Assembly (NCBI GenBank): GCA_963677595.1
Contig: OY782041.1
Location: forward strand, 2,944,001 to 3,008,000
Length of the DNA stretch: 64,000 nucleotides
Direction of reading: 5' to 3'
Source: Spirochaetia bacterium
GTDB lineage: Bacteria > Spirochaetota > Spirochaetia > CAKZLE01
In this document: piece after piece, positions 1-5,172 of the stretch
Position numbering within the stretch: the first letter of the stretch is position 1
How the letters are laid out: every line of letters begins with the position of its first letter
The notes under the pieces: model-generated
Seen by the model: the letters and a program-made list of their open reading frames with translations, nothing else
What the model was told of the DNA's origin: nothing
The model's database searches: none
Translations under genes and position numbers: made by a program

Positions 1-134
1 AAATGGCTTGTTCTCACTGAAATACCCACTATAAATCTGATAAATCAGACACAATGCTGACCATCTTCTTGTCACAGGAGGAGGAATGTGGTACTATTGT
101 GGTACGAATACAGAAGTACCACAAGGAGTATGCA

Positions 135-1661
135 GTGGCACACTACATCAGATACCAGAACAAGGCAGATAAGACCTATGCGCAGATTATTGATGCGGTC
201 AGGGTGGACGGCAAGAAGGAAAACCACTATATCGCCAGCCTCGGTACGGTAATCGATAAAGAGCAAGGGGTCTTCAGATCAAAAGAGCGAGGGATCTACA
301 CCTATACCCTGGAGGACGGATACGGTGAAGCTCCTCGAGAGATTGAGATGCTCCATGAAGGCATGAAGCGGGAGCGGCTTATCCTTGATTTCGGTGACAG
401 TTATATGCTGGATCACTATCTGAGGAATTCCAGTCCGTTCTTTGATCTGTTCTCTGCTATCCTGCCACAACAGCGTGACAGTCTGTTTGCGCTTCTGTTC
501 TTCAGGCTCCTCACTGATAAAAAGGCCTATATGTATGCACAGTCCTGGCATGAAGGGAATTATGCAAGCATTCTCTATCCAAACGCACGACTCCAGAGTC
601 AGCGGATCAGTGATTTCCTCACCGCACTTGGTGATGAAGAGGTGGGCCGGGGCTTTTTCTCTTCCTATCTGAACCAGCTGTATCCGGATCATACCGGCAC
701 GGGGATTCTCATTGACAGTACCGGGCTGCATAATGCGGTGGATATGCCGTTGACCGCACTGAGCAACCATAATGGAGACATCAACTTTGAGACACGGTTG
801 ATCTATGTGATTGACCGGTTCAACGGCATGCCGCTGTACCTGCGCTATTGCCCCGGGAATGTAGTCGATGTAACCACATTGTGCACCACGGTAGAGGAGT
901 TACGGCAGTTAGGAGTACGGACAGACTTTGCGATCGTAGATGCCGGATACTATAGTGAAGATAACGTTGATGCGCTTTATGCAGCTGATATAGCTTTTGT
1001 CTCCCGAGTGGGCCCCAACAGGAAGCTGTGCAAGACGCTTATCGAAACGCATGCCCCAAGTATCCGACAGGCACAGTATATGGTGCCGTTTGGTAATCGA
1101 ATCGTGTATATGAGGCGATTCTCCGTTGATTTGCATGGACATCCCGGCTATGCCTATTTGGGCGTTGACATGGACAGTCGCAATTTGCAGGAGAAGAAGG
1201 TGTCCCTGCAGGCGCTCAATGACAGGCTCCCATTTGATGAGATAGACAAGAAGATGGGGAAGTTAGGCTCCTTTGTCCTCGTATCCTCTCAGAAGATGGA
1301 GTGCCAGGATATGCTGCCCCTGTATTATACGAGAACACAGGTGGAGCAGGTATTTGATATCGCCAAGAATAATGCTGATGTGGTTCCGCTCAGGATTCAT
1401 GGAGAACAGACCCTTCGAGGTCATCTGCTGCTCACATTTCTCGCAACGGTACTGTTTCAGCAACTTCAGAAAGACCTGGTACTGCATACGCAGAAAAAGG
1501 ACAAACTGAACCCTGAAGGCAGTTTCTTCGTACTGAGAAACCAGAAGTGTAAAGTATATGATCGACTGGTGATTCCACAAGAACCGACAAAGAAGATGAA
1601 TGACATCTATAGACTTCTAAAGGTTCCTACCCCAACTTCCATCCCCTATACGCGGTTGTAA
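135..1661 (+). mobile_element. IS1634-family (IS4-like DDE) transposase
   Basis: DDE-type motifs LIDSTG, AIVDAGYYS and YYTRTQVEQVF...LRGHLLLTFLA; AGGAG RBS at 124-128 before GTG 135. A candidate right end GGGGTGGGAACTATAG lies at ~1680-1695; the left end was not identified in the window. Confidence 0.85.
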
Positions 1662-1792
1662 GTCCTGTGGTACGAAAAGGGGGTGGGAACTATAGGTAAT
1701 TTGTTCGAGAGACCTATGGTCCGCAAATAGGCATGCAAGATTGTGCAAATCAGTGATATACTCAGAGAACAAAGATATAAGAGGTAGTAGGT

Positions 1793-2416
1793 ATGAAGAA
1801 TATTCTCTGTTTCGGAGACTCGAACACCTGGGGGTACAATCCGGTCTCTAAGGAACGGTACGACCGGGATACCCGGTGGACCGGGGTCCTGCAGAAGCTG
1901 ATCGGGAGTGAGTACTACATCATCGAGGAGGGGCTCAACGGAAGGACCACGGTCTTCGATGACCCGATCGAAGAGGGTAGGTGCGGCAAGGTGTACCTTG
2001 AACCCTGCCTTATCTCCCACAAGCCGCTGGACCTGGTCGTGCTGATGCTCGGGACCAATGACCTGAAGAAGCGGTTCGACGTCTCTGCCGATGATATCGC
2101 CAGAGGGATAGAACTCCTGATCGAGAAGATACAGAAGAGCGAGACCGGAAGAGGCGGTGCCGCTCCTGAAATACTCCTGCTTTCCCCAGCCGTGATCAAG
2201 GAGACCGGGGAGTTCAGCGAGATGTTCGCAGGTGGAGAAGAGAAGTCGAAGAGGTTCGCCCGGAAGTATCAGGCAATCGCATCGTTACACGGCTGTCACT
2301 TCCTCGATACCGCACCGTTCATGGCGGTCTCGGATGTGGACGGGATCCACTTCCCTCCTGAAGCTCATAAGACGTTGGCGGAGCGGTTGCACGATGTGGT
2401 AGCAGAACTCATATAA
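1793..2416 (+). CDS. SGNH/GDSL-family hydrolase (arylesterase-like)
   Basis: Blocks FGDSNTWG, EEGLNGRT, MLGTND and DGIH are all present. Confidence 0.92.
   Translation: MKNILCFGDSNTWGYNPVSKERYDRDTRWTGVLQKLIGSEYYIIEEGLNGRTTVFDDPIEEGRCGKVYLEPCLISHKPLDLVVLMLGTNDLKKRFDVSADDIARGIELLIEKIQKSETGRGGAAPEILLLSPAVIKETGEFSEMFAGGEEKSKRFARKYQAIASLHGCHFLDTAPFMAVSDVDGIHFPPEAHKTLAERLHDVVAELI
1824..2383 (+). repeat. Direct repeat copy 1 (560 bp) of SGNH gene body
   Basis: Colinear with 4103-4662 (offset 2279, no indels seen), with an identical block at about 1979-2109. Confidence 0.92.
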
Positions 2417-2496
2417 CACGTCTTGCTTCACGTTTTGCTCTTTACTTACGGATAAAATATGCTATACTTAATATATAAGAGTAGTAGAAAGTATAC

Positions 2497-3114
2497 ATGC
2501 GTAAAGATGGCAGACAAACAGAGACAGAGAAAGCACTGAAGATAATCGAAGAATACCATGGTCTTATTCGGACCTCCCAGGCTATAGCACTCGGCATTCA
2601 TCCGAGAGCATTGTATGCATTGCGGGATTCCGGGGAGTTGATGCAGTTAACAAGAGGGGTTTACTGCCTGCCCCATTATGAATTCTCAGGGAGTATGGAC
2701 CTTGAGGTTGTTGCTGTTCGAATCCCTAAGGCTGTCGTTTGTCTGGTTTCAGCATTGGCTTTTCATGAGATGACTACTCATATACCGCATACTGTTTCCA
2801 TAGCGATCCCGAAATCTATGAAAAACCCCATTCTGGAGTTTCCGCCCATAGAGGTGTATCATTTTTCGAAGAACCCATATGAGACTGGGATTGAGTACCA
2901 TGAAAAAAAGCATGTTACAATAGCTGTATACGATCGTGAGAAGACCATAATTGACTGCTTCAAGTTCAGAAACACCATAGGTCTTGATATTGCCATTGAA
3001 GCGCTGAAAACCTATAGACAGCAACAACGGCCTGATTTTATCAAACTGATTGAATATGCACGTATCTGCCGGGTAGAGAAGGTCATGACACCGTATCTGG
3101 AGATGCTGCAATGA
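2497..3114 (+). CDS. abiEi: Type IV toxin-antitoxin antitoxin, AbiEi family
   Basis: N-terminal wHTH (GELMQLTRGVY), SALAFHEMT and YDREKTIIDCFK motifs; ATGA overlap with the toxin gene. Confidence 0.88.
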   Translation: MRKDGRQTETEKALKIIEEYHGLIRTSQAIALGIHPRALYALRDSGELMQLTRGVYCLPHYEFSGSMDLEVVAVRIPKAVVCLVSALAFHEMTTHIPHTVSIAIPKSMKNPILEFPPIEVYHFSKNPYETGIEYHEKKHVTIAVYDREKTIIDCFKFRNTIGLDIAIEALKTYRQQQRPDFIKLIEYARICRVEKVMTPYLEMLQ

Positions 3115-4025
3115 AAGAGATTAAGAACCTGCCTGCATCGGTTAGACAACGCCTCATGAATGAGGCGAGAAAAGAGAAAAGGCCATATGATGAACTCGTA
3201 CGGTACTATGCTATGGAACGTTTTCTTTTTCGGTTGTCAGAATCAGTATTCTCAAGACAGTATATCTTGAAGGGCGGGCTTCTTCTTAAGCTGTGGGATT
3301 CCTCAAAAACACGGTCCACCATGGATATTGATATGAAGGGTGTTGCCAGTAACCATGAGCAGGAAGTACTGAACCAGATTGAGAGGATCCTCTCTCATCC
3401 TGTTGTGCCTGATGGTATCATCTTCGATCCGAGTAGTCTGAAAGTGGAGAGCATTACCGATGATTCTGAGTATTCCGGCCTAAGAATAAAGTTCTTGGGC
3501 TTTATTGGGACCCAGCGAATCCCCATGCAGCTGGATATCGGGTTCGGTGATGTGATTACCCCTGAACCAATAGTGCTAGAGTATCCCACTATATTGGATT
3601 TCCCTGAACCGAAGATTTTCTGCTATAACATGGAAAGTGTCATTGCTGAAAAGTTTGAGGCAATGATCAGTTTAGGAAGAATCAACAGCAGAATGAAAGA
3701 TTTCTATGATATCTGGTTGTTGGCTTCACAAAACCATTTTGATTTTCATTCTCTGGAAACTGCTATTGAGGCGACTTTACGAAATAGGGGGACCAGAATA
3801 CCCGAAGATCTTAATGTATTCTCAGAAGGGTTCATAACTTCAAAACAAGCACAGTGGGAAGCTTATAAAAAACGAACTAAGCTCGATACCGTACCACTGG
3901 AGTTTGCGGTGATCGTACGGCTGATATCATGTTTCTTAACTCCTATTGTTGAGCATTTGATTTATGATTCTATTTATTACGTAAAGCTGCATTGGGTTCC
4001 CACTGATGGGTGGATGGATGCTTGA
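3111..4025 (+). CDS. abiEii: Nucleotidyltransferase toxin, AbiEii/AbiGii family
   Basis: LKGG...RSTMDID, LDIGFGD, AEKFEAM and NSRMKDFYD motifs; lower GC than the flanks. Confidence 0.9.
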   Translation: MKEIKNLPASVRQRLMNEARKEKRPYDELVRYYAMERFLFRLSESVFSRQYILKGGLLLKLWDSSKTRSTMDIDMKGVASNHEQEVLNQIERILSHPVVPDGIIFDPSSLKVESITDDSEYSGLRIKFLGFIGTQRIPMQLDIGFGDVITPEPIVLEYPTILDFPEPKIFCYNMESVIAEKFEAMISLGRINSRMKDFYDIWLLASQNHFDFHSLETAIEATLRNRGTRIPEDLNVFSEGFITSKQAQWEAYKKRTKLDTVPLEFAVIVRLISCFLTPIVEHLIYDSIYYVKLHWVPTDGWMDA

Positions 4026-4102
4026 GAAAGAGAACAGCTACTCGTCCTATGCAAAGAAGAGAGTATCTTCTTTAAGTATTTATTCATTACTATAAAGTCT
4101 GT

Positions 4103-4698
4103 ACACCTGGGGGTACGACCCGGTATCGAAGGAGTGGTATGACCGCGATACCCGGTGGACCGGTATCCTGCAGAAGCTGCTCGGGAGTGAGTACTACATC
4201 ATCGAGGAGGGGCTCAACGGAAGGACTACGGTCTTCGATGACCCGATCGAGGAGGGAAGGTGCGGCAAGGTGTACCTTGAACCCTGCCTTATCTCCCACA
4301 AGCCGCTGGACCTGGTCGTGCTGATGCTCGGGACCAATGACCTGAAGAAGCGGTTCGACGTCTCTGCCGATGATATCGCCAGAGGGATTGAACTCCTGAA
4401 CGAGAAGATCCAGAAGAGCGGGACGGGCAGGGATGGTGCCGCTCCTGCTATCCTCCTGCTTGCACCTGCAGTGATCAAGGAGACCGGGGAGTTCGGTGAG
4501 ATGTTCGCAGGTGGAGAAGAGAAGTCGAAGAGATTCGCAAGGAAGTATCAGGCAATCGCATCGTTACACGGATGTTATTTCCTCGATACCGCACCGTGCA
4601 TGGAGGTCTCGGATGTGGACGGGATCCACTTCCCGCCTGAGGCCCATAAGACGTTGGCGGAGAAGCTGGAACTTAAGCTGCAGGACTTGTTTTCGTAA
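4103..4698 (+). pseudogene. 5'-truncated second copy of SGNH hydrolase (direct repeat copy 2, 4103-4662)
   Basis: Open frame TWGYDPVSKEW... to stop 4698, but an in-frame TAA at 4093-4095 precedes it. The start and the catalytic GDS block are missing. Confidence 0.85.
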
Positions 4699-4713
4699 CC
4701 TGCAGGGTGTCCC

Positions 4714-5172
4714 TCACACCGAGATCCTGGCAGAACCAGGGAACCAGGGACCGTTGTTCCTGGAGGATCCCTGCGCCTTCTTTGGACGCAGTGCTGCTGT
4801 GAACACGGCCTTGAGCTTCCTCACGATATTTTCCGGGATGGTGTAATGTTCCCGCCGGGAGAGCTTCAGGTAGTACATGGCGACCTTGCGGTCGGCATCC
4901 CCCTGACGGTTGGGGTGGCAGAAGTAGCGCTCGAGGGTCCGCAGGCCGGAGAGCCTGTCCTGGTTCATCTCATAGAGCCCGGCAAGTTCCATGTAGGGTG
5001 CCGATGATATCCTGGAGGGGACGAGGCTGCAGGTTTCGAACTCCCTGAGCAGGATGATCTTCGTCAGGATCTCGATGGCAGAATCGTAATCTCTCTTCTG
5101 TTTCAACCTCTCGACCAACTCTGCACAGGCGATGGCATCGCCGACGAGACTCTCCTTGAAGTCGTTATCCAT
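4714..5172 (-). CDS. Hypothetical helical (TPR-like) protein
   Basis: ORF with GAGGAGG RBS before ATG 5172; helical-repeat-like segment APYMELAGLYE. Confidence 0.6.
   Translation of the reverse strand: MDNDFKESLVGDAIACAELVERLKQKRDYDSAIEILTKIILLREFETCSLVPSRISSAPYMELAGLYEMNQDRLSGLRTLERYFCHPNRQGDADRKVAMYYLKLSRREHYTIPENIVRKLKAVFTAALRPKKAQGSSRNNGPWFPGSARISV

What the first reader, a model, noticed from the sequence alone, without database searches (positions are those of the whole stretch)
1793..4698. AbiE toxin-antitoxin cassette inserted between two alleles of a host esterase gene, with no integrase
Seen: low-GC abiEi/abiEii lies between 560-bp direct repeats (1824-2383 and 4103-4662). Copy 1 is a complete SGNH gene. 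Copy 2 lacks only the first ~10 codons, including the catalytic Ser. The copies differ at scattered, often third-codon, positions and have different 3' tails, but share an identical ~130-bp block (~1979-2109). Inference: a circle carrying a foreign, truncated SGNH allele plus abiE integrated by single-crossover homologous recombination, leaving a chimeric intact gene. The SGNH gene would act as a recombinase-free landing pad for defence cassettes, and the toxin-antitoxin pair would penalise loop-out.
Basis: partly seen in the sequence, partly recalled or inferred. Interest (0 to 1): 0.7.

Follow-up and report, generated by a model that had tools for sequence, protein, structure and literature searches.

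The report
Defence cassettes nested in split esterase
In a spirochaete, a toxin-antitoxin pair sits between a whole and a start-less copy of an esterase gene, and a third piece of that gene upstream ends where the start-less copy begins, so a larger defence cassette carrying its own esterase copy likely split the resident gene, one of about a dozen islands with no nearby integrase that are framed by gene fragments in this genome.

Summary
The 560-bp repeat (92.3% identical), the intact and the 5'-truncated SGNH copies, the 131-bp identical block and the low-GC abiEi/abiEii are real. Independent contigs bridge each junction, so misassembly is unlikely. It ends on the same 10 bases (ACACCTGGGG) on which copy 2 begins. 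Between them lie a PDC-M07-like pair, an IS, the intact SGNH and abiE. The SGNH-abiE linkage is old (G001, G003), and this SGNH is not at the family's likely ancestral site after gpmI. Best reading: one crossover at the 10-bp core inserted a 4.4-kb defence cassette with its own SGNH into the resident gene, and homologous recombination between the copies followed. No empty site was seen. The toxin is broken or lost in 3 of 4 lineages, which weakens the addiction idea. Eleven of 12 other hand-picked repeat-framed islands in this genome also lack a nearby integrase. The scan noted a similar gene-fragment scar (eno) in another genome. Verdict: a variant of known gene-replacement, CIME-like islands.

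The parts
1..1695 (+). Insertion sequence (begins 97 bp before the window), 535-aa DDE_Tnp_1 transposase at 54-1661, 5-bp target duplication, 3 near-identical copies in the genome; later arrival. Further parts lie before the window start (G000:C1): AAA_21 5' fragment 2940399-2940532 (-), AAA_14/DUF4143 PDC-S01-like gene 2940646-2941800 (+), SGNH 5' stub with promoter-like element and codons 1-14 ending on the 10-bp core 2941862-2941942 (+), PDC-M07A/B-like pair 2941971-2943739 (-)
   Evidence: an IS-free joint (skip 1797 bp, depth 33.5) is in run X1
1753..1792 (+). SGNH upstream region with extended -10-like element (1754-1762) and RBS; consensus match only
   Evidence: sequence, shared with the upstream stub
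1793..2416 (+). SGNH/GDSL hydrolase, complete (copy 1); core ACACCTGGGG at 1824-1833; 131-bp identical block 1979-2109
2441..2490 (+). abiE promoter-like region (-35-like 2441-2446, -10-like 2463-2468, imperfect inverted repeat), similar in G001 and G003; untested
2497..3114 (+). abiEi antitoxin, 205 aa
3111..4025 (+). abiEii nucleotidyltransferase toxin, 304 aa, open frame
4026..4112 (+). AT-rich spacer and right junction (attR-like); core at 4103-4112; similar spacer follows abiEii in G001
4103..4698 (+). SGNH copy 2, codon 11 to end, no promoter, start or catalytic Ser; likely the displaced 3' part of the resident gene

Best explanation
A 4.4-kb defence cassette (a PDC-M07-like pair, a complete SGNH gene with its promoter, and abiEi/abiEii) likely entered a resident SGNH gene by one reciprocal crossover at a 10-bp core in codons 11-14, leaving a 5' stub upstream and copy 2 downstream. 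Shown: the stub ends and copy 2 begins on the same 10 bases; the intact gene and two defence modules lie between them; no recombinase is encoded there. Inferred: the crossover used an old, decayed SGNH-like site carried behind abiE (attP-like), catalysed by an integrase since lost or supplied in trans, or by microhomology. The cassette's own SGNH would keep esterase function, as in gene-replacement islands. Inferred: afterwards homologous recombination or gene conversion between the two long copies produced the 131-bp identical tract, an IS inserted, and copy 2 began to decay. AbiE would act as ordinary defence or regulatory cargo rather than as a lasting lock on the cassette.
For: The stub (G000:C1:2941862-2941942, 2.1 kb before the window) and copy 2 overlap by exactly the 10-bp core; two independent breaks in a 624-bp gene would fall this close roughly 2-3% of the time (my arithmetic). 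SGNH-abiEi-abiEii is colinear at 70.6% over 2.1 kb in G001 and SGNH-abiEi at 67.9% in G003, so SGNH belongs to the module. After abiEii, G001 has an unbroken decayed site with the same TTATTCATTA and a TWGYD-like remnant, then AAA_14 and a second full SGNH. Left-arm likeness G000 vs G001: 79 of 3000 shuffles reach the score; G001's two relics to each other: 3 of 3000; controls against SGNH upstream regions are not significant. Copy 2 has the longer protein branch (0.09 vs 0.035) and changes the invariant R22 to W. GC3 of cargo 0.40-0.46 against 0.73-0.75 for SGNH. Conversion-like tracts occur in both genomes: 131 bp in G000 and about 400 bp without a mismatch between G001's copies.
Against: No integrase can be assigned: 6 tyrosine-recombinase matches and 2 serine-recombinase domains in G000 lie 51 kb or more away. 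I found no clear dyad symmetry at the core (by eye only). The right-arm likeness to G001 is weak (62 of 3000, and in a different register), and G000 vs the G001:C20 relic is not significant (1428 of 3000). No empty site of the 4.4-kb segment was seen in the one run laid; that segment has full depth. A circle with a 92%-identical SGNH would be expected to integrate more often by RecA through the long homology. Eleven other islands without a shared end motif point to a general, sequence-independent route rather than one integrase.
Confidence: 0.45

Rival explanations
1. One reading: a circle of [SGNH codon 11-end, abiE, junction] (2279 bp) entered the resident SGNH by RecA single crossover, and the PDC-M07-like pair entered separately through the 81-bp promoter/5' homology (HFIR-like or Campbell-type). 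SGNH is a recombinase-free landing pad.
For: Significant 131-bp tract. G001 has two full SGNH genes, 97.3% identical with divergent ends, around abiE + AAA_14, the form a Campbell integration gives. In run X1 a third allele mixes copy-2-like letters at 2142 and 2169 with its own at 2170, and the contig leading into abiEi has the copy-2 letter at 2319 (unitig-level). Eleven of 12 other hand-picked islands in G000 with 88-98% direct repeats of 99-992 bp have no tyrosine or large serine recombinase within 30 kb and no shared end motif; mismatches are at third positions in asnS (4/4), DHDPS (19/25) and the SKI-family gene (9/10) (frames worked out by hand).
Against: Needs two independent breakpoints to coincide on the same 10 bp. 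No loop-out product seen: the KLELK-tail contig (depth 27.9) matches the abiEii-junction contig (27.5). An identical tract marks conversion, not necessarily the integrating crossover.
Confidence: 0.3
2. An old tandem array of SGNH-abiE-cargo units in the genus ancestor, kept alike by gene conversion and pruned by short-homology deletions between the decayed site and SGNH codons 11-14; no recent import of the SGNH allele.
For: Copies cluster by genome, not by position (G000 c1+c2 91/96, G001 A+B 89/86). The junction looks older than the G000/G001 split. A deletion variant exists in run X1.
Against: Needs two separate deletions at the same microhomology to give both reciprocal junctions. Flanking genes differ in G000, G001 and G003, so the module has moved.
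Confidence: 0.15
3. The 560-bp repeat is a relic of a long target-site duplication made by an IS1634-like element.
For: G000 has two DDE_Tnp_1 elements flanked by direct repeats of 94-710 bp at 7 sites examined; repeats of 8-514 bp are reported for IS1549/IS1634 (PMC2266710, passages).
Against: The insert has neither element's ends; mismatches are third-position biased beyond the roughly 50% expected if one copy decays neutrally (p=0.016); the adjacent IS makes a 5-bp duplication.
Confidence: 0.05
4. Strain-chimera misassembly.
For: G000 is listed with 6.28% contamination; run X1 holds at least two strains and no single piece spans the whole stretch.
Against: Separate contigs bridge SGNH-abiEi (2263-3200), abiEii-copy 2 (3171-4195, 0 differences) and copy 2-downstream gene (4542-4822, 0 differences), the last two at equal depth. 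G001 shows a related double-SGNH layout. X1 may be the source sample, so it is not fully independent.
Confidence: 0.03

Closest known systems
Lambdoid phage 21 (and, recalled, e14) at icd
   Same: The element carries a replacement part of its protein-coding target, leaving a chimeric or foreign intact gene and a displaced, diverged fragment. Phage 21 replaces 165 bp of the icd 3' end (PMC4129442, one passage).
   Different: Here the duplicated part is 560 bp (90% of the gene), the break is at codons 11-14, there is no integrase or phage gene, and the cargo is defence modules.
CIMEs and site-specific tandem accretion (ICESt1/ICESt3-related islands)
   Same: Integrase-less element retaining attL/attR-like ends; several modules stacked at one site; 8-60-bp core repeats (PMC5704250, passages).
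   Different: No cognate ICE/IME or integrase was found, excision is untested, and the target gene itself is part of the mobile module.
AbiE type IV toxin-antitoxin system (AbiEi_4/AbiEii)
   Same: Gene pair, order, overlap and family matches. AbiE stabilises an ICE in S. suis, through AbiEi binding oriT (PMC11062541, abstract).
   Different: No oriT or ICE here; the toxin is broken or lost in 3 of 4 lineages seen.
Cryptic defence islands of unknown mobility
   Same: Defence genes in islands with no recognisable mobile-element markers (PMC13586616, abstract and section 29).
   Different: That work concerns P2/P4 defence homologues; here the borders are mapped to one gene and one 10-bp core.
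Homology-facilitated illegitimate recombination (HFIR)
   Same: One end by homology, the other by short-match joining, no recombinase (PMC3240628, start of abstract in a search listing).
   Different: Linear HFIR normally replaces DNA (recalled); a duplication needs a circle or an ends-in fragment.

Membership tests
AbiE type IV TA | abiEi (AbiEi_4) upstream of abiEii (nucleotidyltransferase), bicistronic | tested here: met
   Pfam and PADLOC hits, 4-bp overlap
AbiE type IV TA | Toxicity, neutralisation, abortive infection | not testable with these tools
   open frame in G000 only; no assay
Integrative element with its own integrase (IME, ICE, prophage, satellite) | Tyrosine or serine recombinase within or beside the element | tested here: not met
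   PF00589, PF07508, PF00239 searches of G000: nearest 51 kb and 525 kb
CIME (cis-mobilizable element) | Short direct repeat (8-60 bp) at both ends, inside the target gene | tested here: met
   10-bp core at G000:C1:2941933 and at window 4103-4112
CIME (cis-mobilizable element) | A related ICE/IME whose integrase uses the same site | tested here: inconclusive
   none found; G001:C20 has a relic beside a serine recombinase gene but no matching 5' stub in 16 kb; 2 of 16 viral SGNH loci inspected show only phage-like genes after an intact SGNH
CIME (cis-mobilizable element) | Excision, or an empty site | tested here: inconclusive
   no such joint in the contigs of one run; contigs drop rare variants
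Campbell-type HR integrant | Long direct repeats of two alleles with a crossover or conversion tract | tested here: met
Campbell-type HR integrant | Single-copy relative with copy-1 5' end and copy-2 tail, no cargo | tested here: inconclusive
   no conspecific genome available; the variant seen keeps the copy-1 tail and abiEi
IS1634-type long target duplication | Near-identical repeats flanking an element with IS ends | tested here: not met
SGNH/GDSL hydrolase | GDS block I, GTND block III, DxxH block V | tested here: met
   copy 1 has all three; copy 2 lacks block I (block names recalled)

The most novel reading that the evidence does not exclude
This spirochaete lineage builds its accessory genome without dedicated integrases. 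Circles or ends-in fragments carrying a 0.1-1 kb piece of a gene are inserted by homologous recombination, and a dispensable SGNH esterase serves as a reusable, self-renewing landing pad on which defence modules (AbiE, PDC-M07, PDC-S01, HipA/VapBC in G002) are stacked and swapped across the genus.
Probability: 0.3. Interest if true: 0.65.

Novelty: new variant of a known kind. Interest (0 to 1): 0.42.

Why it matters
Many defence islands have no known means of mobility. This locus has mapped borders, both reciprocal junctions, a relative showing the other (two full genes) outcome, and segregating variants in one community. A complete genome with about a dozen similar repeat-framed islands would let one test whether RecA or a trans-acting integrase moves such cassettes. 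The parts themselves (AbiE, gene-replacement islands, CIMEs) are known, and abiE between direct repeats of other sequences is common (10 of 88 other abiEii loci), so surprise is moderate.

Tried and rejected
Viral scan: 16 loci at 29-44%, two inspected, unrelated. SGNH beside abiE outside the family: 0 of 88 abiEii loci (61, 30 best of 43, minus 3 of G000/G001); flanks were 1.5-6 kb or shorter. The class-wide SGNH search (126 of 401 genomes) showed the family is common; I did not examine those neighbourhoods. A matching asnS 3' duplicate in G001-G005 was not found with a 100-aa query. A shared end motif among the G000 islands was not seen by eye. A loose end at 1842 in run X1 continues in frame as a divergent SGNH-like sequence not in G000; depth arithmetic puts it near 2, so it may be another organism and I did not use it. 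The 10 of 88 repeat-bracketed abiE loci have no non-abiE control, and I read 8 of the 10 bracketing pairs. Literature searches returned no paper on SGNH genes as island targets, but none used SGNH as a term, so this is no claim of absence. No supplements were read.

Full report
Observation. The window is G000:C1:2944001-3008000 of a one-contig, 4.33-Mb genome; the same-genus genome G001 is titled an uncultured Spirochaetia bacterium. The direct repeat is 1824-2383 / 4103-4662, 517 of 560 identical, ungapped. Of 43 mismatches 29 are at third positions; 24 codons differ synonymously and 13 non-synonymously. The 131-bp identical run (1979-2109) is reached by 23 of 100,000 permutations, and the same block is freely variable at third positions against G001 and G003. 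Copy 1 is a whole SGNH hydrolase; copy 2 starts in codon 11, lacks the catalytic Ser and has a stop upstream. abiEi/abiEii are confirmed and are compositionally foreign (GC3 0.45-0.46 vs 0.73-0.86).

Assembly. One public run holds the stretch (it may be the source sample). Its contigs bridge copy 1 to abiEi (2263-3200), abiEii to copy 2 (3171-4195, no differences, depth 27.5) and copy 2 to the next gene (4542-4822, depth 27.9). No piece spans the whole stretch. A second form joins 3200 to 4714 (depth 26.5), lacking most of the toxin and all of copy 2; the 2263-3200 contig carries a 1-base insertion early in abiEii. An IS-free form also exists. No joint for either predicted empty site was listed.

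What lies outside the window. Self-comparison found a third SGNH piece at G000:C1:2941862-2941942, about 2.1 kb before the window start: extended -10-like element, RBS and codons 1-14, 78 of 81 identical to 1753-1833. It ends on ACACCTGGGG, the 10 bases on which copy 2 begins. The order is: ISL3, AT-rich ORFs, a 5' fragment of an AAA_21 gene, AAA_14/DUF4143 (PDC-S01-like), SGNH stub, a PDC-M07A/B-like pair on the minus strand, an IS with a 5-bp duplication, SGNH, abiEi, abiEii, copy 2. Core to core is 6170 bp, or 4373 bp without the IS. So the abiE pair is one module of a small defence island, and stub plus copy 2 make up one split gene.

Relatives. All 5 other family genomes have an SGNH match. 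G001: helicase, SGNH A, abiEi, abiEii with a TAG stop, a decayed site, AAA_14, SGNH B. A and B are 97.3% identical with a tract of about 400 bp without mismatch and divergent ends. G003: gpmI, SGNH, abiEi, and no abiEii match. G004: gpmI, SGNH, and a DUF401-like gene next. G002: AAA_14, HipA, PIN and a broken SGNH 3' end on one 4-kb contig. In G000, G001 and G005 gpmI is not followed by SGNH (only 538 bases were available in G005), so the window's gene is not at the likely ancestral site and moves with defence cargo. Copies group by genome in a 9-protein tree (G000 pair 91/96, G001 pair 89/86, no starred branch). The spacer between abiEii and the core resembles the G001 spacer before its TWGYD-like remnant (79 of 3000 shuffles); a second G001 relic (C20) resembles the first (3 of 3000) but not G000's significantly (1428 of 3000). 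The junction is therefore probably older than the 92% identity of the copies suggests. Outside the family, 0 of 88 abiEii loci had an SGNH, while 10 of 88 had abiE between other direct repeats of 45 bp or more (no control set).

Genome context. A census of direct repeats within 20 kb gave, besides tandem genes and IS copies, 12 other pairs that I picked by hand (88-98% identity, 99-992 bp, cargo between). They frame defence or sugar-uptake cargo at asnS, DUF401, OpuAC, araA, DHDPS, DUF454/tRNA-Asn and others. One (ssb) encloses serine recombinases; the other 11 have none within 30 kb, though three enclose an IS. No common end motif was seen. Two IS1634-like elements make 94-710-bp repeats at 7 sites, as reported for IS1549/IS1634 (PMC2266710, passages), but the abiE insert lacks their ends.

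Mechanism. Both reciprocal junctions at one 10-bp core are most simply made by one crossover between a resident SGNH and a circle carrying PDC-M07, promoter, SGNH, abiE and a decayed SGNH-like site (0.45). G001 would be the other outcome, integration through the long SGNH homology, leaving two full genes and the decayed site unbroken. The catalyst is not identified: no recombinase is near. An old array with concerted evolution (0.15), an IS1634-type duplication (0.05) and misassembly (0.03) follow. Homologous exchange between the copies is supported under all three leading models. Stabilisation by the toxin is doubtful: it is broken or lost in G001, G003 and the second form in X1. AbiE does stabilise an ICE in S. 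suis, but via AbiEi at oriT (PMC11062541, abstract).

Comparison with known systems. It works like gene-replacement islands (phage 21 at icd, PMC4129442 passage) and CIME accretion (PMC5704250 passages). It meets the short-core criterion but no cognate integrase or excision was shown, so I do not file it as a CIME. It fits the cryptic defence islands of unknown mobility described in PMC13586616 (abstract, section 29). What is unusual is the near-whole-gene duplication, the target gene riding on the cassette, its reuse as a defence hotspot in 3 of 3 genomes of the genus, and the number of similar islands in one chromosome. Earlier scan notes describe an eno 5'-fragment scar in another genome and the Shango cassette at araA in this genome; I checked only the latter's Pfam domains and its 188-bp flanking repeat.

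Verdict. Real feature; interpretation partly supported and enlarged; new variant of a known kind; interest 0.42.

Noticed in passing
G000:C1:492820, 571329, 589005, 784874, 2572738 (630-aa element; L121-L123, L126, L127) and 756995, 1575878 (597-aa element; L124, L125): Two IS1634-like DDE elements flanked by long, variable direct repeats of host DNA (94, 128, 215, 301, 567, 577, 710 bp; 97-100% identical). Several repeats begin at a -10-like sequence and duplicate promoter plus gene start, leaving one intact gene. 710 bp exceeds the 514 bp quoted in PMC2266710.
   Followed up: partly
G000:C1:144584, 330128, 933745, 1552956, 1891674, 2923842, 3325533, 3453552, 3644156, 4175721, 4202837 (L108-L119): Eleven further islands framed by 88-98% direct repeats of gene fragments with no nearby integrase; cargo includes HepT/MNT, Abi_2, TerB-BrxD-helicase, sugar ABC/sulfatase and TRAP clusters.
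   Followed up: partly
G000:C1:2879816-2891850 (L120) and G001:C20 (L128:5109-14414): Large serine recombinase genes beside ssb in both genomes; in G000 a 204-bp repeat covers the ssb upstream region and first codons; in G001 the recombinase gene is duplicated (1240 bp, 99.4%) around a sugar/sulfatase cluster with an SGNH relic.
   Followed up: partly
L001:14400-14533: A 5' fragment of a second AAA_21 allele broken in its Walker A motif, identical to the full gene over the ~73 bp next to the break; origin unexplained.
   Followed up: partly
G000 genome-wide: 22 tblastn matches to the AAA_14/DUF4143 protein, an expanded PDC-S01-like family.
   Followed up: no
window 1842 (run X1): A low-depth contig matches the SGNH start and continues in frame as a divergent SGNH-like sequence absent from G000; either a swapped 3' allele or another organism.
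   Followed up: partly
L151, L153, L154, L168, L171, L180, L190, L229, L231, L240: abiE bracketed by direct repeats (tRNA pieces, gene 3' ends, paralogues) in unrelated genomes; L171 and L240 enclose little but abiE.
   Followed up: partly
window 6753 onward: Host-like glycosyltransferase / sugar transferase cluster begins after a PAS-GGDEF gene; not studied.
   Followed up: no
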